Origin: a virus
Taxonomy: Duplodnaviria > Heunggongvirae > Uroviricota > Caudoviricetes
Strand: one strand, 5' to 3'
Virus record (IMG/VR): IMGVR_UViG_2778261535_000004
Coordinates: 1-7,270 of that record
Length of the DNA stretch: 7,270 bases
The notes under the pieces were generated by a model. The model had not been told where the DNA came from and searched no databases. It saw only the letters and a list, made by a program, of their open reading frames with translations. Numbering within the stretch: the stretch's first letter is position 1; each line of letters opens with the position of its first letter. Position numbers and translations under genes: made by a program. This document shows positions 50 through 7,270 of this stretch, one piece after another.

Positions 50-90
50 AGCCGCAGTATTCTGCCATGACAAGTTGCTGCGGCTTTTTA
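50..90 (+). terminator. Weak candidate plus-strand intrinsic terminator (possibly for a convergent gene upstream of the window)
   Basis: Inverted repeat agccgcag (50-57) / ctgcggct (78-85) followed by ttttt (85-89). The loop is 20 nt, so the hairpin is weak. Confidence 0.25.
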
Positions 91-93
91 TGT

Positions 94-381
94 TTAACGG
101 ATAAACAGCCAGACCAGCAGACACGCCACCACCGGCACAGCAAAATCCATCAGGCTTGCTACATCCCACGCGCGTGGATCAAAACCGCCCCACCACGGCA
201 TATTCATGCGCTTGCCATGCCCGAACATTTCAATCCAGCGATATTCTGCCTGGGTGTGTTCACGCGCAATGAAGAACGTACAACCGGCTATCGCTCCGTA
301 AGCCCAGTTCCCGGTAAAAAGACCAATCAGTAGCTGCGCAGCCACAGCACAAAGAGCATGAAGGAAAGGTGTTATATCCAT
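94..381 (-). CDS. Hypothetical small membrane protein (95 aa, about three predicted hydrophobic helices)
   Basis: ATG at 381..379 preceded by a strong Shine-Dalgarno AGGAGG (plus 386-391), 13 nt after the stop of the preceding gene. Hydrophobic stretches FLHALCAVAAQLLIGLFTG, WAYGAIAGCTFFIA and VASLMDFAVPVVACLLVWLFI. Stop TAA at 96..94. Confidence 0.55.
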   Translation of the reverse strand: MDITPFLHALCAVAAQLLIGLFTGNWAYGAIAGCTFFIAREHTQAEYRWIEMFGHGKRMNMPWWGGFDPRAWDVASLMDFAVPVVACLLVWLFIR

Positions 382-385
382 TACT

Positions 386-391
386 CCTCCT
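386..391 (-). promoter_or_regulatory. Shine-Dalgarno sequence (AGGAGG) of the 95-aa membrane protein gene
   Basis: Minus strand reads TGA-TAAAGGAGGAGTA-ATG; a near-consensus ribosome-binding site a few nt upstream of the ATG. It supports the minus-strand ORF over the overlapping plus-strand ORF 67..333. Confidence 0.6.
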
Positions 392-394
392 TTA

Positions 395-1096
395 TCAGAT
401 ATCGCTTCGGGAAGTTGATAACAGCTTTAATTCTGACTCAATTTCATCAACTCTTTCAGTCAGTTTCTGGATATGGTGAATCAGTGGAACAACCAGACGT
501 TCGTACATTACACCTTCGGCAACAAGGCCATTGCTGGAAATAGCTTCCGGTGCATCATCTTCGTTAGCTGGTCGCCAGTGTACAAACTGAGGGGCAATTT
601 CTCCTACTTCCTCGGCAATCAATCCGTAGAATCCCCAGTCACGCCTGTCATTTTCGCATTGTGACCTGTACCACACAGGGCGCATCCTGAAAATGAGATC
701 AGCGTGCTCTGAATCTATTGTCTCTACTGAATGTTTATAGCGGATAGACGATGTTGACCGCAGCACAGACGAAATTGCAGGGTCAGGATTAAGATAAAGG
801 TTTGCCGCCGCTGTAGTCGTGGCCAAATTCCATAAATAAAACGCTTCACGACCTGTCAGTGGATAAAAATCTCCGCCATAACGACCACTTTCCAGATCGT
901 TCACTTCCACTTTGTTTTTCAGCTTATTATCAACTTCAGTTTTTGTGTATCTGGTGCTGATATCCTGCTTTGCACTGGTCATATCAGTCTGAAGCGTTGA
1001 TACTTTTCCGTTAATTGAGGAAATATCTTCCTTAGTTTTACTGACATCTCCCTTTAGCGTGGTGATATCTCCTGGAATTACTGTCGATGTAGCCAT
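395..1096 (-). CDS. Tail-fibre-domain protein with C-terminal peptidase S74-type intramolecular chaperone domain (233 aa)
   Basis: ATG at 1096..1094 with GAGGGAG 5 nt upstream. The C-terminal ~118 aa (from S-S-I-R-Y-K at aa 116-121, then DWGFYGLIAEEVGEIAPQFV...GLVAEGVMYERLVVPLIHHIQKLTERVDEIESEL) fit the pattern of the autoproteolytic chaperone domain of phage endosialidases and tail fibres (Ser-Lys dyad 5 residues apart, hydrophobic core, terminal coiled coil). The N-terminal ~115 aa are Ser/Thr/Lys-rich and fibre-like. Confidence 0.7.
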   Translation of the reverse strand: MATSTVIPGDITTLKGDVSKTKEDISSINGKVSTLQTDMTSAKQDISTRYTKTEVDNKLKNKVEVNDLESGRYGGDFYPLTGREAFYLWNLATTTAAANLYLNPDPAISSVLRSTSSIRYKHSVETIDSEHADLIFRMRPVWYRSQCENDRRDWGFYGLIAEEVGEIAPQFVHWRPANEDDAPEAISSNGLVAEGVMYERLVVPLIHHIQKLTERVDEIESELKLLSTSRSDI

Positions 1097-1105
1097 TTGT
1101 CTCCC

Positions 1106-1387
1106 TCACATCCAGCCACGAAGTTGATGCTCAACAACAACCGCGTATTTATCGAATATTGACGATTTTTTTGCATCATTAATGATGCGCACGTTTACAA
1201 AATATCCGTCTTCCTTAACACATACCGGTTCGCCATCTTCAGTCAGTTCTCCGGTTTCTTTGTACACGTTACCTATCACGTCAATAAGAATATCATCCTG
1301 CATCGTCTCGTCGTCATAATAGCCAGTGCTATCCATAAAGGCCGAAAAGTCGGCCCTGTCGGCAAATTTGAGGGTTAAGTCTCGCAT
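1106..1387 (-). CDS. Hypothetical small acidic protein (93 aa), translationally coupled to the tail fibre gene
   Basis: ATG at 1387..1385 overlaps the fibre stop (TAATG, 1-nt overlap). Product is strongly acidic (about 20 D/E against 10 K/R). Stop TGA at 1108..1106 lies 9 nt before the next start. No family recognised from sequence alone. Confidence 0.6.
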   Translation of the reverse strand: MRDLTLKFADRADFSAFMDSTGYYDDETMQDDILIDVIGNVYKETGELTEDGEPVCVKEDGYFVNVRIINDAKKSSIFDKYAVVVEHQLRGWM

Positions 1388-3783
1388 TATATTTTTTCTC
1401 CCTGCTGCGCTGCTGTTAATTCCCTGTGCCAGATACGCAAATTTCGGACGTGCCCGAACAGATGGCGGCTGCCACTGGACGCCTTTCCACCGATAGTGAT
1501 GAATCCACCAGTGTACTTCTGATTTTGATATGCTGAAGTTGTCAATGCCCCGAAAACACCATTGACAACAACTTGCAACCTTCTGTCTTCCGAAAATAAA
1601 AAACCAACGATATTATGGCGCTTAGTTCTTGCAAGAGTACTATTATACTCTTTAATGGCATTTGAGTCGCCGTTTGTGATTATCGCTTTATTACCACGAG
1701 TAGCAAAACCAAGGTACATATAACTTTGATTTATTATATCTGTGGAATCTCCCGTTGTTGTTATATCCAGAATCCTTGCTCCACCAGTAATATTAGGCAT
1801 AAAGCCAGGTTCCCATAGTGTATTTACTTCAACAAGACAACTTATTGCAGGAGTTGACCAGTTTAATTTTACAGGGACAGTAACCATATCACTGGCTCTT
1901 GTTGCACCAGTTCCCGACGTAATGATAAATGATGACGCATGAGTTCCCTTTTCAAACTGAGGGGTGGTCATCATTATCTGGTCTCCGGCCTGTATGGAGC
2001 GCCCGTCCGCAGCTATCTCAAAACGAGCGTGAATACTTTTCGGTTCTGGTGATTTATATGTAAATTCGATGCGTAACCATCCGTTAGCTTCTCTGTATAT
2101 GACATGATTGACAGCATCCTCACCATTCGGAATTTTTAATATTTCTCCGGTGCCGCAATCTATATATGACTCAGCAACCAGTGTGTTGCTTGTTCCGTCA
2201 TCGTTCACATAAGCTACGCGAGGTCTGATTAATATATCAGTCCCTTTAACACGGCACGAAAGTGTAACTGATTCATTTGCATCAACACTGATTACACGGG
2301 GATAACCACTCGTAATTAATGTCGCCCGGCCATCCAACGGAGTTCCCGTAACCGTGAATGTTCCATATGTAAACCCATACCCGTCAGTTTCACTAGTCAC
2401 CGATAATGCAGATTTCAGATAATTCCATAAGGATGGTGTATTACTATAATAAAGTGTGTTTGTTCTCTGCCCCTCTATTAACAACCCCATTTTTTCAAAT
2501 CTGGGTTCATCTACAGACGCAATACAAAGCCCCCCGGATTTATCAATATATGTCGCTTCAGATGCCCGCTTAAACTTAACAATCTTGTCGCCAGGCATTA
2601 TTATTTCATCATCACCAATAACAATCTTTTTATATGATGGCGAAAAGCCCGTAATCATATCCAGTGAATCGTTAAACGGTATCCACACATCAGGCAGCGG
2701 TTGTAAGACATATTTATACGGCTCTGCTGCCTGGCTTGCATACTCTCTGGCTGCATCTTCACTTGCTTTAGCTGCCGTCTGGCTTGCTGCCGATGCTTTC
2801 GCTGAGTTCGCAGCCGCTGTTTCGCTCACCTTTGCGTTGGTTTCACTGGTTTTTGCTGCTTTTTGGCTGTTGGCTGATGCAGTGGCAGAAGCAGCCGCCG
2901 CGCTTGCAGAACCAGCTGCGGCATTCTCGCTTTGGGCTGCTGCATCCTGACTGTTTTTCGCCGCAGTTTCGCTGGCTTTGGCATTCGTTTCGCTGGTCTT
3001 CGCTGCCGTCTGGCTGGACTTTGCGTTAGTTTCACTCGTCTTCGCAGCTTTCTGGCTGTTAGCCGCGGCAGTTGCTGATCCAGCTGCTGAAGTCGCAGAA
3101 CCAGCTGCGGCACTCTCGCTTTCAGCTGCTGCATCCTGACTGCTTTTCGCCGCAGTTTCACTGGCTTTGGCATTCGTTTCGCTGGTTTTCGCTGCCGTCT
3201 GGCTGGACTTTGCGTTGGTTTCGCTCGTCTTTGCGGCTGTCTCGCTATTTTTCGCGTTGGTTTCTGATTTTTTGGCTGCTGTCGCGGAGTTTGCCGATGC
3301 AGTCTTTGAGGTCGCTGCCGCCTGTGCACTATTAGCTGCATTCGTTTCTGAGGTTTTCGCCGCGTTCTTTGATGATGCCGCTGCAGTTTCGGATTTCTTT
3401 GCCGCCGCTGCGCTCTGAGAGGCGGCTTCGGCGTTGCGTGCCACTTCTTCCACCATTGCCTCAAAACGACGCAATGCCTCCGGCATGACATCATCTTCCG
3501 TCATGGCACCGAGAAAATCATTCAGCGTACCTGGTCTGGAGCCTTCATAGACGGTAATGGTCCCGGCATGTGAAGGCGGAAAACCTTCAACCAGCAGGGT
3601 GACGCTGTACTGGCCATACTCAACATCCATGCTGTAACGTCCGGCTTCATCCGGATTTTCAGAAGCCACCGTGTTCACCAGTACCGTGGTGCTGTTACGC
3701 TTTGCCTTCAGTTGAATAGTGCAGTTCTGTATTGGTTTTCCCGCACCATCTTTCAGCACACCTGAGATTTTTACTGCTGCCAT
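1387..3783 (-). CDS. stf: Side tail fibre protein, mosaic: lambda-Stf-like N-terminal domain, Ala/Ser/Thr repeat shaft, non-lambda distal domain ending in a LamG-like jellyroll motif (~798 aa from the ATG)
   Basis: ORF 1387..3789 starts with GTG-GAT-ATG; the ATG at 3783..3781 has GGAG about 5 nt upstream and is the likelier start, giving MAAVKISGVLKDGAGKPIQNCTIQLKAKRNSTTV..., which resembles the lambda Stf N-terminus. Residues ~121-347 are AAKTSETNAK-type repeats. The C-terminus ends ...GGFITIGGKASSGSRHLFGHVRNLRIWHRELTAAQ, matching the conserved last strand of LamG-like/concanavalin-A-like domains (F-G-x-I/V-D/R-x-V/L-R-I-Y/W-x-R-x-L-T/S-x-x-E/Q). Stop TAA at 1389..1387. Confidence 0.85.
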   Translation of the reverse strand: MAAVKISGVLKDGAGKPIQNCTIQLKAKRNSTTVLVNTVASENPDEAGRYSMDVEYGQYSVTLLVEGFPPSHAGTITVYEGSRPGTLNDFLGAMTEDDVMPEALRRFEAMVEEVARNAEAASQSAAAAKKSETAAASSKNAAKTSETNAANSAQAAATSKTASANSATAAKKSETNAKNSETAAKTSETNAKSSQTAAKTSETNAKASETAAKSSQDAAAESESAAAGSATSAAGSATAAANSQKAAKTSETNAKSSQTAAKTSETNAKASETAAKNSQDAAAQSENAAAGSASAAAASATASANSQKAAKTSETNAKVSETAAANSAKASAASQTAAKASEDAAREYASQAAEPYKYVLQPLPDVWIPFNDSLDMITGFSPSYKKIVIGDDEIIMPGDKIVKFKRASEATYIDKSGGLCIASVDEPRFEKMGLLIEGQRTNTLYYSNTPSLWNYLKSALSVTSETDGYGFTYGTFTVTGTPLDGRATLITSGYPRVISVDANESVTLSCRVKGTDILIRPRVAYVNDDGTSNTLVAESYIDCGTGEILKIPNGEDAVNHVIYREANGWLRIEFTYKSPEPKSIHARFEIAADGRSIQAGDQIMMTTPQFEKGTHASSFIITSGTGATRASDMVTVPVKLNWSTPAISCLVEVNTLWEPGFMPNITGGARILDITTTGDSTDIINQSYMYLGFATRGNKAIITNGDSNAIKEYNSTLARTKRHNIVGFLFSEDRRLQVVVNGVFGALTTSAYQNQKYTGGFITIGGKASSGSRHLFGHVRNLRIWHRELTAAQQGEKI
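2749..3429 (-). repeat. In-frame low-complexity Ala/Ser/Thr-rich repeat region of the tail fibre shaft (about aa 121-347)
   Basis: Translation is dominated by reiterated AAKTSETNAK / SQTAAKTSETNAKASETAAK motifs; the DNA is reiterated GCN/ACN/TCN-rich sequence. It ends at ...KASEDAAREY (about 2740-2757). Confidence 0.8.
2790..3270 (-). repeat. Tandem direct repeat with 189-bp (63-codon) period, about 2.5 copies, inside the fibre shaft
   Basis: Plus-strand block starting 'gcagaaccagctgcggcattctcgctttgggctgctgcatcctgactg...' at 2906 recurs at 3095 ('gcagaaccagctgcggcactctcgctttcagctgctgcatcctgactg...') with near-identity for ~150 bp; a partial further copy flanks it. Protein-level repeat NSQKAAKTSETNAKSSQTAAKTSETNAKASETAAK(S/N)SQDAAA(E/Q)SE(S/N)AAAGSA... 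Confidence 0.75.
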
Positions 3784-3794
3784 ATCCACTCCAC

Positions 3795-3821
3795 AAAAAA
3801 GCCCGCCTGAACCGGCGGGCT
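3795..3821 (-). terminator. Putative rho-independent terminator between lom and the tail fibre gene
   Basis: Minus strand reads AGCCCGCC-GGTTCA-GGCGGGCT followed by TTTTTT (plus strand: aaaaaa at 3795-3800, stems at 3801-3807 and 3814-3820). The T-tract runs directly into the GGAG ribosome-binding site of the fibre gene. Confidence 0.5.
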
Positions 3822-3847: not shown

Positions 3848-4447
3848 TCAGAATTTATAACCGACACCCACGATGAAACCGTCAGTGCGCCAGTCACCAC
3901 TGCCGGAGCCTTCATAAGCAATATCAATGGCCACGGATTCGGTCGGGTTAAACTGCACGCCAGCTCCCCACGCCAGAGACGTGTTGCTGTGGCGACCGTC
4001 ATCACTTCCGGTCAGCACATCGTGCGTTTTCCCCTTATTGTCAGTTACGCGGAGATAATCCCCGGAAAAAGTCGACACACGGCTGTAAGCCATACCCGCC
4101 ATCGCATACGCGCTGAACCATTCATTCACGCGCACAGACGGCCCCACCATCACGCTGAACCAGCGGTTACGCACGGAATCTTCATGCCAGCGGGTATTGC
4201 TGTAACGGGTAAGCTGGCGATTCTTGTCTCCTGCATAGCTGAATGACGTCACCAGCCCCAGTGTGTCCGTAAATTCATAACGGTATTTCACGTTAATGCC
4301 CTTCAGGTCATCGTTGCCGGGCATATCAGTATGGGACTGAAGATAGCCGCCGCTTAGTGTGGACTGATGCTCTGCTGCACTCGCTGGCGTACCAGCGGCG
4401 GCCAGCCAGACTACTGCAGACAGAATAACAGCACATAATTTACGCAT
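3848..4447 (-). CDS. lom: Lom outer membrane beta-barrel protein (Ail/Lom/PagC/Rck family), 199 aa
   Basis: ATG at 4447..4445 preceded by GAGAGG; N-terminal signal peptide ([28 protein letters not shown]); ends in aromatic residues (...[10 protein letters not shown]) typical of outer-membrane barrels; recognisably lambda-Lom-like ([32 protein letters not shown]...). Position J-lom-stf as in lambda. Confidence 0.9.
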
Positions 4448-4471: not shown

Positions 4472-4496
4472 AAAAAAGGCGCCATTTCTGGCGCCC
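4472..4496 (-). terminator. Putative rho-independent terminator between J and lom
   Basis: On the minus strand the sequence reads GGCGCCA-GAAA-TGGCGCC followed by TTTTTT (plus strand: aaaaaa at 4472-4477, stems at 4478-4484 and 4489-4495). It lies 20 nt after the J stop and just upstream of the lom ribosome-binding site. Confidence 0.5.
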
Positions 4497-4516: not shown

Positions 4517-7270
4517 TCAACGGATACTGATACCGGAAGCAGCTTTTTTGGTCACAATCACCGTACAGTCTGTGATGTTACCTGCGCCCTGATTGCCTTT
4601 CTGGAAAATCTTAAACTCCAGAGTGACGCTACCACCACCACTCGGCATATCAATAACCGCACTGTAACTACCGGGAATGGCTCCTTTAGTTTCTCTGGAT
4701 GCGATTAATACGCCATTTTTGCGAACTTCAAAACCATAACCCGTGTATCGCGTACCTCCCGGGTTATTACCGCTCCCCGGATCGTCATACGCCACACCGT
4801 TAAAAATAATGGGCGGAATAATAATCTGGCGGTCAAAGTTATGATCATCGTAAATGGTGACTGTAACCGTCCCGTTTGGTGTTTCCGTGTTACCCCACGT
4901 ACCAGCCTTTTTCGGAAATGGTTTGGATACAGTTTTAACGAAGTCACCTCTGACCTGGTTCGCCTCCAGCATGCCCTTAATCGTACAGTTTTCATTTACC
5001 GTGACGTTGTTGAGCGTCCCGGAGTTCGCATTCACGTTACCGCTGATATCGGCATTTTTCGCCGTCAGCCGCCCGTCCGGTGTCAGGGAAAATGCCGGAG
5101 GATTACCGCCGCTGGTAATGGTGGGAGCCGTCAGATACTTCAGGAACACTTCGTTCATGAATATCTGGTTGCCCTGCGCCACAAACATCGGCGTTTCATT
5201 CCCGTTTGCCGGGTCAATAAACGCGATACGGTTAGCGGCAACCAGGAACTGGCTCAGTTTGCCTTCCTCCGTATCCTCCATGCTGAGGCCAAGCCCCGCG
5301 ACATAATGCCTGCCGTCTTCGGTCTGCTCAATTTTGACGCCCCACATGGCATTCCATTTATCGTTGGCGTCTTTCCACTCTTTCGAAAACTCCTCCAGTT
5401 TGCTGGCGTTATCCTCCGTCAGCTCGACTTTTTCCAGCAGCTCCTTGCCGAGATGGGATTCGGTTATCTGGCCTTTGAAAAAATCCAGGTAACCTTCCGC
5501 ATCATCGCTCGCCCGACCGACAGCCTCCACGAATGCCGATTTGCCGACGGTGTTCACACTGCGAACGTAAAAATAATAATCATGGCCCGGTTTGATATTG
5601 ATACTGGCGGCTATCCAGTACAGCGCCGTGCCAAGATAGCGGGCTGTGGTTTCAACCTGCCTGATATCCGCAATCCGCTTTTCCGAGAACCAGAACTCAA
5701 ACTGTACAGTCGGATCATAAACCGCAAGATGCGGCGTGGCGGTTATCTGAAAATAGCCCGGCGTCAGCTCAATCCGCGATGGCGCTGCCGGTGCGGCAAT
5801 CCGGAACGATACCGACGCCGGATCGCCCTGCTGCCCCCACGCATTTACCGCCCGGACTGTCAGACTGTAATTTCCCAGAGCCAGCTGCCTGAAGCGGTAT
5901 GTGGTTTCCGTCGTCCGGGCCGTGCTGACCAGCCGCTCACTGCCGTCATCCGCTGCCACGGTCAGGCGAAGCATAAAGCTCACGCCCTTCACCACCTTCG
6001 GCGTATCCCAGCGCGCCAGTACCTGGTATTCCCCGCTGTCTGCGGTGACTTCTGCGGTCAGGTGCTGCACTGCTGGCGGCGTGACACCATTCACCGTGCC
6101 GCTCTGGTCGCCGTCAAAGTGCGCCCCGTTATCCACAATGGCTTCTTTTTCCGGTACATGCTGCACGGCAGTGATGGCATACGTGCCGTCGTCGTTCTCA
6201 CGGATACTCACACAGCGGAACAGGCGCTGGCGCAGCGTCGGCAGCTTCAGCCCCCACACGCTGTATTCAGCAACGCCGTCAGGAACACGGCTCACTTTCA
6301 CCTTCACGCCGTCGGTGACGGACTGGACCTCCACGCTGACCGGATTCCCCTGTCCGTCAACCAGGCTTATCAGCGTGGTGCCGGAGGATGGCAGCGTGAT
6401 TTCACGGTCGAGCGTCAGTGTCCGCGTCTGGCTGTTCACCGCCAGCACGCGCCCGCCGATGCTGATACCCGCATAGTCATCATCACAGATTTCAATGACA
6501 TCGCCCGGTACATGGCGAAGCCCTTCTGCACCCACGCTGAAGTCCACGGTCTGCGTTTCCAGCAGCTCCGTTTTAATCAGCCACAGCCCGGCGCGGTGTG
6601 CCTGCCCCCGGCTGGTACAGCCAAAGGCATCCATCTTCGTGACGTTACGACCGTAACGGAGAATGGCCTGCGTATCTTCAACAAGCTCTGTCGCCGTCTC
6701 CCAGCCGTTATTCGGGTCAATCCAGTTCACCTCAACGGCATTATGGCGGTCCTTCAGGGCGCTGAAGCTGTAGCGGAACGGCGCGCCATCATCCGGCATC
6801 ACCACATTACTGCGGTTATAGGTCCACACCTTATCCGACGGTCGGTCCTGCACGAACGTCAGCGTCTGCCCGTTCCATACCGGCATACAGCGCATCGCCG
6901 AGCAGAAATCACTGAGAACATCCCACGCCTTACGCTGTGTGGTCAGGTAGGCATTACAGGTGATGCGCGGCTCCGTGCCACCAAAGCCATCCGGCACCGA
7001 CTGGTCGCAATTCTGGCCGATGACATACAGCGCCCATTTGTCCACATCCGCCGCACCGAGACGCTTCCCCATGCCGTAGCGCGGATGGGTCAGCATATCC
7101 CACAGACACCAGGCCATGTTGTTGCTGTATGCCGGTTTAAACGTCCCGTCCCAGATACCGCTGTATTGCCGCGTCTGCGGGTTATAGTTCGACGGCACCT
7201 GCAGAATGCGCCCGCGAAGATGATAATTACGGCTCACCTGCTGGCTGCCGAACTGCTCCGAATCCACCTG
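4517..7270 (-). CDS. J: Host specificity protein J (tail tip / central tail fibre), C-terminal 916 aa; 5' end lies beyond the window
   Basis: Long minus-strand ORF open to the window edge, stop TGA at 4519..4517. Translation ([45 protein letters not shown]... [17 protein letters not shown]...) is recognisable as lambda gpJ over most of its length; the last ~150 aa are more divergent. Position immediately upstream of lom matches the lambda order J-lom-stf. Confidence 0.9.

What the first reader, a model, noticed from the sequence alone, without database searches (positions are those of the whole stretch)
94..1387. Three-gene accessory cassette (acidic 93-aa, S74 protein, membrane protein) packed behind the fibre with 1-13 nt gaps
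The three genes are spaced TAATG overlap, 9 nt and 13 nt, each with its own Shine-Dalgarno sequence, and no intrinsic terminator separates them from the fibre gene or follows them inside the window. This looks like one co-transcribed unit travelling with the fibre distal domain. None of the three is a classical lambda tail gene, so the unit as a whole may be an uncharacterised receptor-binding or host-interaction module.
Basis: inference. Interest (0 to 1): 0.55.

Follow-up and report, generated by a model that had tools for sequence, protein, structure and literature searches.

The report
Side-tail-fibre accessory genes plus membrane protein
Behind the side tail fibre gene of this E. coli lambda-like prophage sit three real, tightly packed genes: the first two belong to a tail-fibre kit shared with lytic coliphages, and the third is a small membrane protein that many phages place after their receptor-binding genes; all are common but uncharacterised.

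Summary
Three minus-strand ORFs lie at 1106-1387 (93 aa), 395-1096 (233 aa) and 94-381 (95 aa). They are spaced by a TAATG overlap, 9 nt and 13 nt, and each has a Shine-Dalgarno sequence. No canonical terminator lies between them. All three are under purifying selection (dN/dS 0.13-0.34).

- **93-aa protein:** an acidic protein whose start always overlaps the stop of a LamG/GTA-spike-type fibre gene, even at 30-48% identity and in lytic T1-like and 9g-like phages. It is probably a fibre-specific assembly or tip partner.
- **233-aa protein:** a short second fibre protein with a conserved N-terminus, a coiled coil, and a self-cleaving S74 chaperone domain (Ser116/Lys121 invariant). It is optional, has a 346-aa allele, and assorts independently of the fibre tip.
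- **95-aa protein:** a three-helix membrane protein from a broad proteobacterial family. It was absent from the four lytic or unclassified fibre loci checked. Elsewhere it sits right after unrelated fibres and tailspikes, or alone on chromosomes.

Functions are inferred; none has been characterised. Interest is moderate.

The parts
1387..3789 (-). Side tail fibre (Stf-type), 800 aa. It has a conserved N-terminal tail-attachment domain, an Ala-rich repeat shaft, and a distal LamG/GTA-spike-fibre-type domain. The core of that domain (aa ~450-775) is hypervariable and its last 25 aa are conserved.
   Evidence: Pfam phage_tail_N 5.5e-67. NCBIfam GTA_spike_fiber at aa 437-632, 3.6e-18. Conservation profile. 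C-terminal LamG-type motif HLFGHVRNLRIWHRELT shared with distant fibres.
1385..1389 (-). TAATG stop/start overlap between the fibre and the 93-aa gene, an arrangement typical of translational coupling.
   Evidence: Sequence. In 78 of 78 related loci the fibre stop overlaps the start by 1 nt (TAATG) or 4 nt (ATGA).
1106..1387 (-). 93-aa acidic protein (pI 4.3, 20 D+E against 10 K+R) with no signal peptide or TM segment. PHROG 1361. Proposed fibre-specific assembly factor or tip partner.
   Evidence: PHROG 6.8e-46, with no Pfam or NCBIfam hit. Always lies directly after a LamG-tipped fibre. AF2 pLDDT 86.7, alpha/beta sandwich. dN/dS 0.34.
1097..1105 (-). 9-nt spacer GGGAGACAA carrying the SD for the 233-aa gene. 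The two ORFs are in the same frame, separated by TGA plus two codons.
   Evidence: The 9-nt gap is constant in 80 or more loci.
395..1096 (-). 233-aa short tail-fibre protein. It has a conserved N-terminal ~27 aa, a coiled coil (aa ~8-65), a small tip (aa 66-115), and a C-terminal S74 intramolecular chaperone (aa 116-233).
   Evidence: Pfam Peptidase_S74 27.3 bits against a cut-off of 22. PHROG 3299 C-terminus 1.2e-139. PDB 8hqz L-shaped tail fibre 2.3e-7. dN/dS 0.17.
1016..1096 (-). Codons 1-27 (MATSTVIPGDITTLKGDVSKTKEDISS): an N-terminal segment shared by the 233-aa and 346-aa alleles and by the T1-like and 9g-like phage homologues. Proposed docking segment.
   Evidence: Alignment. tblastn of aa 1-36 finds 53 phage records among lambdoid, ~50-kb T1-like and 9g-like phages.
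734..751 (-). Predicted autocleavage site and catalytic dyad: Ser116 (749-751) and Lys121 (734-736). Cleavage between Thr115 and Ser116 would leave a 115-aa mature chain.
   Evidence: Codons checked. S116 and K121 are invariant in 23 homologues down to 24% identity. They align to TSGIEYKK of 8hqz.
382..394 (-). 13-nt spacer TAAAGGAGGAGTA with a strong SD (AAGGAGG) for the 95-aa gene.
94..381 (-). 95-aa three-helix membrane protein (helices at aa 4-23, 26-52 and 74-94) with an invariant loop REHTQAEYRWI...MPWWGGFD. PHROG 1443.
   Evidence: AF2 pLDDT 94.7. Alignment with 24 invariant columns. No Pfam, NCBIfam or PADLOC family. dN/dS 0.13.
50..85 (.). Hairpin just after the 95-aa stop codon. A U-tract is present only on the plus strand, so it is probably the terminator of the convergent DinI-like gene. 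It may also be a 3' end or stabiliser for the fibre operon.
   Evidence: Convergent DinI-like gene seen in L001.
3800..3821 (-). Intrinsic-terminator-like site between lom and the fibre start. The fibre and the three genes lie downstream of it.
   Evidence: Phage 21's curated record annotates a terminator just upstream of stf, there between J and stf.

Best explanation
The region is the distal end of the late tail operon of a lambdoid E. coli prophage. It is a composite of two things.

**(A) A portable lateral-tail-fibre kit.**
- It consists of a fibre with a LamG/GTA-spike-type distal domain, followed by a 93-aa acidic cytoplasmic protein whose start codon overlaps the fibre stop. I infer that this protein is made in step with the fibre and acts on its distal domain, either as a dedicated folding or trimerisation helper or as a retained tip partner. 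That would make it the functional counterpart of lambda Tfa without being related to it.
- Optionally, a second short fibre protein follows. Here it is 233 aa, with a trimeric coiled coil, a ~50-aa tip and an S74 intramolecular chaperone. I infer that the chaperone folds the trimer and then cuts itself off at Thr115|Ser116. I also infer that the mature 115-aa trimer docks through its conserved N-terminal ~25 residues to give a bipartite or branched side fibre, as LtfB docks on LtfA in T5-like phage DT57C.

**(B) A 95-aa three-helix inner-membrane protein.** It belongs to a proteobacteria-wide family and is not a virion part. Phages repeatedly insert it right after their receptor-binding genes. 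I infer that it acts in the envelope of the lysogen or infected cell, for example in exclusion or in protecting the cell or progeny from the phage's own adsorption apparatus.

**Shown versus inferred.** Shown here: gene reality, junctions, domain content, the catalytic dyad, and the linkage patterns. Inferred: every biochemical role.
For: **Module identity.**
- The order fibre, 93-aa homologue, S74 protein occurs in lambdoid prophages (63 of 68 judgeable IMG/VR loci, which also carry the 95-aa gene).
- It occurs in Nonagvirus ESCO3 and in a metagenomic 9g-like contig, L090.
- It occurs in the T1-like BASEL phage PeterMerian, with identities of 42%, 48% and 56% and a TAATG overlap.

**93-aa protein tied to the fibre.**
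- The stop/start overlap is present in 78 of 78 loci.
- Homologues at 30-41% identity still directly follow LamG-type fibres.
- It remains where the S74 gene is absent (phage 21; L089).
- It is cytoplasmic and acidic and has a confident fold.

**233-aa protein.**
- Pfam S74 scores above its threshold.
- Ser116 and Lys121 are invariant.
- It has a coiled coil resembling the P22 needle and T5-like fibre shafts.
- Its length and sequence are conserved at 56% identity in lytic phages.
- dN/dS is 0.17.
- The N-terminus is shared between alleles whose bodies are otherwise unrelated.

**95-aa protein.**
- It was absent from the three lytic-phage loci and one unclassified metagenome locus checked.
- Homologues at 57-68% identity lie directly after a pectate-lyase fibre in a Citrobacter lambdoid prophage, between tailspike genes in a Salmonella myovirus-type element, and after the P2-type H fibre in Aeromonas with an ATGA overlap. 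They also lie after a Laminin_G_3 fibre in Chelativorans, after an S74 fibre in Desulfovibrio, and one gene after a gpJ-like protein in Comamonas.
- Chromosomal copies occur in Aeromonas and in sphingomonads.

DT57C provides the precedent for two-protein branched lateral fibres with S74 domains (PMC4728585).
Against: **No direct evidence.** No literature or database function was found for any of the three genes (paper searches).

**93-aa protein.**
- It does not co-vary with the fibre tip: it is 88-96% identical while tips are 33-60% identical. That is unusual for a tip-specific chaperone, although the conserved jelly-roll core strands could be its target.
- LamG-type fibres exist without it (Chelativorans L124).

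**233-aa protein.**
- A 115-aa mature chain is very small for a receptor-binding fibre.
- The protein is conserved rather than hypervariable.
- Its docking partner is unknown.
- BASEL annotators called the homologue a 'putative lateral tail fiber chaperone'.

**95-aa protein.**
- No promoter of its own was detected, so expression in lysogens is unproven.
- 60% or higher identity across hosts with unrelated RBPs argues against a receptor-specific mechanism.
- Sphingomonads, which to my knowledge lack LPS, carry chromosomal copies, which argues against an LPS-only target.
Confidence: 0.55

Rival explanations
1. One reading: the three genes form one co-evolving accessory module that travels with, and is specific to, the LamG-tipped distal fibre domain.
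For: The genes are tightly packed with no internal terminator. The three-gene order is kept in 63 of 68 E. coli prophage loci.
Against: - Genome counts differ several-fold, and this fibre tip occurs in only 12 of 5426 genomes.
- Sixteen tip clusters mix freely with both alleles of the second gene.
- The S74 gene is absent in phage 21 and L089.
- The 95-aa gene is absent from the lytic carriers checked and is present behind unrelated RBPs and on chromosomes.
Confidence: 0.1
2. The 233-aa protein is not a fibre subunit. It would be a trans-acting chaperone that borrows the S74 fold to trimerise the main fibre, which has no S74 domain and no Tfa. The 93-aa protein would be a co-chaperone, and neither would end up in the virion.
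For: - The main fibre lacks any known chaperone.
- Homologues are annotated 'putative lateral tail fiber chaperone' or 'chaperone of endosialidase'.
- The protein is conserved rather than hypervariable.
- The mature part is small.
Against: - To my knowledge, S74 domains are known to act only in cis.
- The invariant Ser/Lys cleavage dyad only makes sense if an N-terminal product is released.
- The 346-aa allele carries a ~190-aa beta-rich body at the position of a receptor-binding domain.
- Fibres of phage 21 and L089 have no such gene next to them.
Confidence: 0.2
3. The 233-aa ORF is a decaying 3' remnant of a longer ancestral fibre gene left by recombination. The two small ORFs would be unrelated filler.
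For: The whole protein aligns to the last ~240 residues of a 1385-aa fibre family, PHROG 3299. The locus is visibly mosaic.
Against: - dN/dS is 0.17 over 23 alleles.
- It has its own SD and ATG, with a constant 9-nt spacer.
- The same length and architecture are kept at 56% identity in lytic T1-like phages.
- The catalytic dyad is intact.
Confidence: 0.03
4. The 95-aa protein works in virion production, for example as a membrane platform for fibre assembly or as a holin-like lysis modulator, rather than in exclusion or envelope protection.
For: It lies in the late operation with a strong SD and no detectable promoter of its own. It has three helices and is about 100 aa, like class I holins. 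In a Comamonas prophage it lies among small ORFs after gpJ.
Against: - It was absent from the lytic-phage loci with the same fibre genes that were checked.
- It has no holin or other Pfam family.
- It is not in a lysis cassette, and its neighbours lack endolysin domains.
- Conserved chromosomal copies lie outside prophages.
Confidence: 0.12

Closest known systems
Branched L-shaped tail fibres LtfA/LtfB of T5-like phages DT57C and DT571/2 (Golomidova et al. 2016, PMC4728585)
   Same: - There are two adjacent fibre genes.
- The second protein has a short conserved N-terminus, thought to dock it on the first fibre.
- It has a C-terminal pfam13884 self-cleaving chaperone with a predictable cleavage motif.
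- Branches recombine independently.
   Different: - Here the first fibre has no S74 domain and ends in a LamG-type jelly roll.
- A 93-aa gene is wedged between the two fibre genes.
- The second protein is far shorter (233 aa).
- No sequence similarity of the N-terminus to T5-like phages was found.
- Docking is untested.
Lambda Stf with its Tfa tail-fibre assembly protein (and the P2 H/G and Mu S/U pairs)
   Same: A small gene immediately downstream of the side or lateral fibre gene, in the same operon. The fibre has the same N-terminal tail-attachment domain (phage_tail_N; PDB 9e7m match 7.6e-49).
   Different: - The 93-aa protein has no Pfam, NCBIfam or PDB sequence match to any Tfa family.
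- It is half the size of lambda Tfa (about 194 aa, from my own knowledge).
- It is paired with a LamG-type tip, not a lambda or T4 gp37-type tip.
Intramolecular chaperone (Peptidase S74) of endosialidases, T5 pb1 and GA-1 gp12
   Same: The domain is detected above the Pfam threshold, the Ser...Lys(+5) dyad is invariant, and the domain sits C-terminal to a trimeric stalk.
   Different: The domain makes up half of a very small stand-alone protein, rather than the end of a 700-1400-aa fibre or spike.
Receptor-blocking or seroconversion genes placed next to RBP genes. Examples: T5 llp beside the pb5 gene (PMC4728585), and cor in T1/phi80-type phages, gtrABC after the P22 tailspike and epsilon15 gp21/22 (these three from my own knowledge)
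   Same: A small envelope protein gene sits directly beside the receptor-binding gene. Among the loci examined here it was found only in prophage or chromosomal contexts.
   Different: - The 95-aa protein is a polytopic inner-membrane protein, not a lipoprotein.
- It matches none of these families.
- It is over 55% identical behind at least five unrelated RBP types.
- It has chromosomal homologues.
- No exclusion phenotype is known.

Membership tests
Peptidase S74 / intramolecular chaperone auto-processing domain (233-aa protein) | Sequence match to PF13884 above the curated threshold | tested here: met
   27.3 bits against a cut-off of 22, at aa 116-172. phmmer hit to the DT57C-type L-shaped fibre 8hqz, 2.3e-7.
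Peptidase S74 / intramolecular chaperone auto-processing domain (233-aa protein) | Catalytic Ser with Lys five residues downstream at the cleavage site | tested here: met
   S116 and K121 are invariant in 23 homologues down to 24% identity. Codons are at 749-751 and 734-736.
Peptidase S74 / intramolecular chaperone auto-processing domain (233-aa protein) | Located at the C-terminus of a trimeric fibre or spike stalk | tested here: met
   The coiled-coil region at aa ~5-65 matches the P22 gp26 needle and a T5-like fibre shaft. The domain runs to the C-terminus.
Peptidase S74 / intramolecular chaperone auto-processing domain (233-aa protein) | Autoproteolytic release after trimer folding | not testable with these tools
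   Needs expression with SDS-PAGE or mass spectrometry of wild type against S116A and K121A.
Tail fibre assembly proteins (lambda Tfa, P2 G, Mu U, T4 gp38/gp57A) (93-aa protein) | Sequence or profile similarity to a described Tfa or chaperone family | tested here: not met
Tail fibre assembly proteins (functional class) (93-aa protein) | Gene immediately downstream of, and co-inherited with, the fibre gene it serves | tested here: met
   Stop/start overlap in 78 of 78 loci. Adjacency is kept at 30-48% identity in four phage groups.
Tail fibre assembly proteins (functional class) (93-aa protein) | Required for fibre folding, or binds the fibre tip | not testable with these tools
   No multimer prediction or experiment was available.
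Branched two-protein lateral fibre (LtfA/LtfB type) | Second fibre protein with a conserved N-terminal docking segment and a variable body | tested here: met
   The 233-aa and 346-aa alleles share only aa 1-27. The same N-terminus occurs in T1-like and 9g-like phages.
Branched two-protein lateral fibre (LtfA/LtfB type) | Physical attachment of the second protein to the first fibre | not testable with these tools
   Needs cryo-EM, pull-down or multimer modelling.
Moron (autonomously expressed prophage gene) (95-aa protein) | Own promoter and terminator | tested here: inconclusive
   No sigma-70-like site upstream on the minus strand. The hairpin after the stop lacks a U-tract on that strand. 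The scan is only a consensus match.
Known exclusion, seroconversion or defence families (Cor, Llp, GtrA, PADLOC systems) (95-aa protein) | Profile match to a described family | tested here: not met
   No Pfam, NCBIfam or PADLOC family, including when 34 family members were scanned. PHROG 1443 has unknown function.
Holins (95-aa protein) | Small multi-TMD protein encoded in a lysis cassette next to an endolysin | tested here: not met
   It has three helices, but it lies at the fibre end of the tail operon. It has no holin family hit and no endolysin neighbour in any context examined.

The most novel reading that the evidence does not exclude
Two unrecognised families are hidden in a very common prophage region.

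1. The 93-aa protein would be the founding member of a new class of fibre partner, dedicated to LamG/GTA-spike-type lateral fibres of lambda-like, T1-like and 9g-like coliphages.
2. The 95-aa protein would be a host-derived inner-membrane factor that phages of many tail types recruit next to their receptor-binding genes. It would alter the cell envelope generically, excluding superinfection or preventing progeny from re-adsorbing, through a target conserved from Escherichia to Comamonas.
Probability: 0.3. Interest if true: 0.6.

Novelty: new variant of a known kind. Interest (0 to 1): 0.42.

Why it matters
**Host-range engineering.** Side and lateral fibres set the first step of host recognition, and they are the parts swapped when lambda-derived particles and therapeutic phages are engineered. 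This work shows that a LamG-tipped fibre always comes with a 93-aa partner, and often with a second self-processing mini-fibre. It also shows that the same kit moves between temperate and lytic coliphages. That tells engineers which genes probably have to be moved together, and it marks the conserved segments that flank the hypervariable tip.

**The membrane protein.** The 95-aa gene is present in about a third of complete E. coli genomes, often in several copies. It is linked to receptor-binding genes of many kinds. If it changes phage susceptibility, it would be a widespread and so far unnamed contributor to prophage-mediated resistance.

Tried and rejected
**Searches that gave nothing.**
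- Sequence profiles for the 93-aa and 95-aa proteins gave no family in Pfam, NCBIfam or PADLOC.
- The PDB sequence search for the 93-aa protein gave only chance hits.
- The afdb50 library was unavailable.
- Six literature searches and four papers gave no functional data on these genes. The papers were the two BASEL papers and the two Eligo STF-engineering preprints.
- Rfam gave no RNA family in the window.

**Ideas considered and rejected.**
- The 233-aa ORF as a pseudogene remnant: rejected on purifying selection and on its conserved architecture in lytic phages.
- The 95-aa protein as a holin: rejected on genomic context.
- The 95-aa protein as a GtrA-like flippase: no profile match.
- Read-through fusion of the 93-aa and 233-aa ORFs, which share a frame: noted but not supported, because the stop codon differs (TGA here, TAA in PeterMerian) and each ORF has its own SD.

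**Technical points.**
- A first dN/dS value of 0.74 for the 95-aa gene was an artefact of unaligned length variants. It was corrected to 0.13.
Full report
**1. What is in the window.**

All genes lie on the minus strand:
- a partial gpJ tail-tip gene (4517-7267);
- lom (3848-4447; Ail_Lom 1.4e-119);
- an 800-aa side tail fibre (1387-3789);
- the three ORFs of the finding: 1106-1387 (93 aa), 395-1096 (233 aa) and 94-381 (95 aa).

The fibre has the prophage tail-fibre N-terminal domain (5.5e-67). That domain matches a solved 94-residue 'tail fiber protein' chain, 9e7m (7.6e-49). The fibre also has an Ala-rich repeat shaft (a 189-nt unit repeated 2.2 times) and a distal 'GTA head spike fibre' domain. 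It ends in a LamG-type last strand, HLFGHVRNLRIWHRELT.

Near-identical regions in complete E. coli genomes place this block at the end of a lambdoid prophage, next to a convergent DinI-like gene and the integrase at dusA.

**2. Checking the observation.**

- the fibre TAA overlaps the ATG of the 93-aa gene (TAATG), with GGGAG upstream;
- the 9-nt spacer is GGGAGACAA;
- the 13-nt spacer is TAAAGGAGGAGTA.

A consensus scan finds only two terminator-like sites on this strand. Both flank lom, and one ends 11 nt before the fibre start. None lies between the fibre and the three genes. After the 95-aa stop there is a stable hairpin, but its U-tract is on the other strand. The hairpin is therefore best read as the terminator of the convergent gene.

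The ORFs are real genes. Pooled dN/dS is 0.34, 0.17 and 0.13. A first value of 0.74 for the 95-aa gene was an alignment artefact.

**3. The 93-aa protein.**

It is acidic (pI 4.3) and has no signal peptide or membrane segment. It matches only PHROG 1361, of unknown function.

The family is small. There are 48 clusters at 50% identity among 1.8 billion representative proteins.

Its position is its defining property:
- In 78 of 78 related IMG/VR loci the fibre stop overlaps its start, by 1 nt (TAATG) or 4 nt (ATGA).
- The same adjacency holds at 52% identity in phage 21.
- It holds at 48% in the T1-like BASEL phage PeterMerian and at 89% in Nonagvirus ESCO3.
- It holds at 32-41% in three metagenomic contigs. 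In each, the upstream protein ends in the same LamG motif.
- It holds at 30% in PhiR55_1, where hhalign gives 99% probability.

It stays when the next gene is missing (phage 21, L089). Its partner is therefore the fibre, not the S74 protein.

An AlphaFold model is confident (pLDDT 86.7). It is a small alpha/beta sandwich with no informative structural relative.

I infer a fibre-specific assembly factor or tip partner. Two cautions apply. It does not track tip variation: it is 88-96% identical while tips are 33-60% identical. And a LamG-type fibre without it exists in Chelativorans. What is conserved in all these fibres is the start and end of the distal domain (aa ~355-445 and 776-800). That is a plausible common binding surface.

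**4. The 233-aa protein.**

Pfam Peptidase_S74 scores above threshold at aa 116-172. The protein aligns end to end with the last ~240 residues of a 1385-aa fibre family. It also matches the S74 region of the T5-like L-shaped fibre 8hqz.

Ser116 and Lys121, the cleavage nucleophile and its base, are invariant in 23 homologues down to 24% identity. Residues ~5-65 are coiled coil.

The gene has a 346-aa allele at the same place. That allele shares only the first ~27 residues, then carries a ~190-aa beta-rich body and a different S74 subtype.

Full-length 231-aa homologues at 56% identity occur in lytic T1-like phages. One is annotated 'putative lateral tail fiber chaperone'.

The invariant cleavage dyad, the conserved N-terminus and the allelic bodies fit a second, short, self-chaperoned fibre subunit best. 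Such a subunit would dock by its N-terminus, as proposed for LtfB on LtfA in DT57C (PMC4728585). A trans-acting chaperone remains a serious rival. A decaying gene remnant is unlikely.

**5. The 95-aa protein.**

The model is very confident (pLDDT 94.7). It has three helices with a long, strictly conserved loop, REHTQAEYRWI...MPWWGGFD. No described family matches.

It was absent from the lytic-phage loci checked (ESCO3, PeterMerian, L090) and from the unclassified metagenome locus L089.

Its homologues at 57-68% identity lie in these positions:
- immediately after a pectate-lyase fibre in a Citrobacter lambdoid prophage;
- between two tailspike genes in a Salmonella element with a baseplate wedge;
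- after the P2-type H fibre in Aeromonas salmonicida, with an ATGA overlap;
- after a Laminin_G_3 fibre in Chelativorans;
- after an S74/pectate-lyase fibre in Desulfovibrio;
- one gene after a gpJ-like protein in Comamonas.

Other copies are chromosomal and outside prophages. In two Aeromonas species the gene sits beside pirin. In sphingomonads it sits beside nadB, pnp or ligA.

It is therefore a host-type membrane protein that phages repeatedly place behind receptor-binding genes. By analogy with receptor-blocking and seroconversion genes that sit beside RBP genes, I propose an envelope-level role. That role could be exclusion, or protection of the cell or progeny from the phage's own adsorption machinery.

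This is inference only. No promoter of its own was detected. Its conservation across unrelated RBPs argues for a generic rather than receptor-specific target.

**6. Is it one module?**

Within E. coli lambdoid prophages, yes by synteny: 63 of 68 loci with enough sequence show the full order.

By evolution, no:
- Among 5426 complete E. coli genomes, this fibre tip is in 12 (3 at full length). The 93-aa gene is in 988, the 233-aa body in 742 and the 95-aa gene in 1886, with a median of two copies.
- Sixteen tip clusters pair freely with both second-gene alleles.
- DNA similarity to phage records breaks exactly at module borders. One conserved block is the 93-aa gene plus the first 65 nt of the next gene (1032-1393). 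Another is the 95-aa gene (104-393).

The picture is of two variable receptor-binding segments separated by conserved linker genes, with a separately mobile membrane gene at the end.

**7. Verdict.**

The locus is a very common but uncharacterised arrangement.

It is a new variant of the known multi-protein lateral-fibre locus: a LamG-tipped fibre, an obligatory 93-aa partner and an optional S74 mini-fibre. To that it adds an RBP-linked membrane protein of unknown family.

Nothing here is categorically new. The two small families are, however, concrete and testable leads for host-range engineering and for prophage-conferred phage resistance.

Noticed in passing
window 3800-3821 and 4477-4496 (minus strand): lom is bracketed by two strong terminator-like hairpins with T-runs, one after J and one just before the fibre start. 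It therefore looks like an insulated moron, and the fibre and the three genes would need antiterminated late transcription.
   Followed up: partly
window 50-85: A hairpin of about -17.5 kcal/mol is followed by UUUUUAU only on the plus strand. It is likely the terminator of the convergent DinI-like gene seen in L001 at 8735-8983. On the minus strand it sits about 8 nt after the 95-aa stop, without a U-tract.
   Followed up: partly
window 2830-3246: The fibre shaft contains a 189-nt (63-aa) tandem repeat, 2.2 copies at 85% match, with 21/42-nt sub-periods encoding the Ala/Ser/Thr/Lys/Glu-rich AAKTSETNAK-type motif. The long plus-strand ORFs here (for example 2456-2950) are mirror artefacts of this composition.
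   Followed up: no
window 1097-1108; also L094, L005, L090, L006: The 93-aa ORF and the next ORF are in the same reading frame, separated only by one stop codon and 2-3 sense codons. The gap is 9 nt here and in L090, and 12 nt in PeterMerian, phage 21 and PhiR55_1. The stop codon differs between lineages (TGA or TAA), so functional read-through seems unlikely, but the multiple-of-three spacing recurs.
   Followed up: partly
window 1460-2440 (fibre aa ~450-775): This distal-domain allele is rare: 12 of 5426 complete E. coli genomes, and 3 at full length. The flanking sequence is common. Across 79 loci the region falls into 16 clusters at 80% identity or more, whereas aa 1-440 and the last 25 aa are about 90% conserved.
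   Followed up: yes
L087 6001-6309; L103 about 3937-4309: In two Aeromonas species the 95-aa homologue is a stand-alone chromosomal gene just downstream of a pirin gene. In A. rivipollensis (L087), two lipid A acyltransferase genes also lie within 4 kb. Sphingomonad copies sit next to nadB, pnp or ligA. This suggests a native cellular function that predates capture by phages.
   Followed up: partly
L001 8980-9060 (equivalent to window ~1-60): RefSeq annotates a tiny 'capsid protein' pseudogene fragment, and 'terminase' in other records, in the stretch after the 95-aa gene. This is probably a spurious or relic annotation at the prophage end.
   Followed up: no
L090 7446-8153; L004 1295-2005: In 9g-like phages the S74 gene is followed by a ~235-aa protein with a Gly-rich N-terminus and a Cys-rich C-terminus (in L090), and by further small ORFs with no Pfam hits in L090, instead of the 95-aa membrane gene.
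   Followed up: no
L005 (phage 21) and L092 (Lambda_2E9): Immediately beyond the 95-aa gene these phages carry a sitABCD iron/manganese transporter operon on the opposite strand. The prophage end after the fibre block is therefore a cargo insertion site.
   Followed up: no
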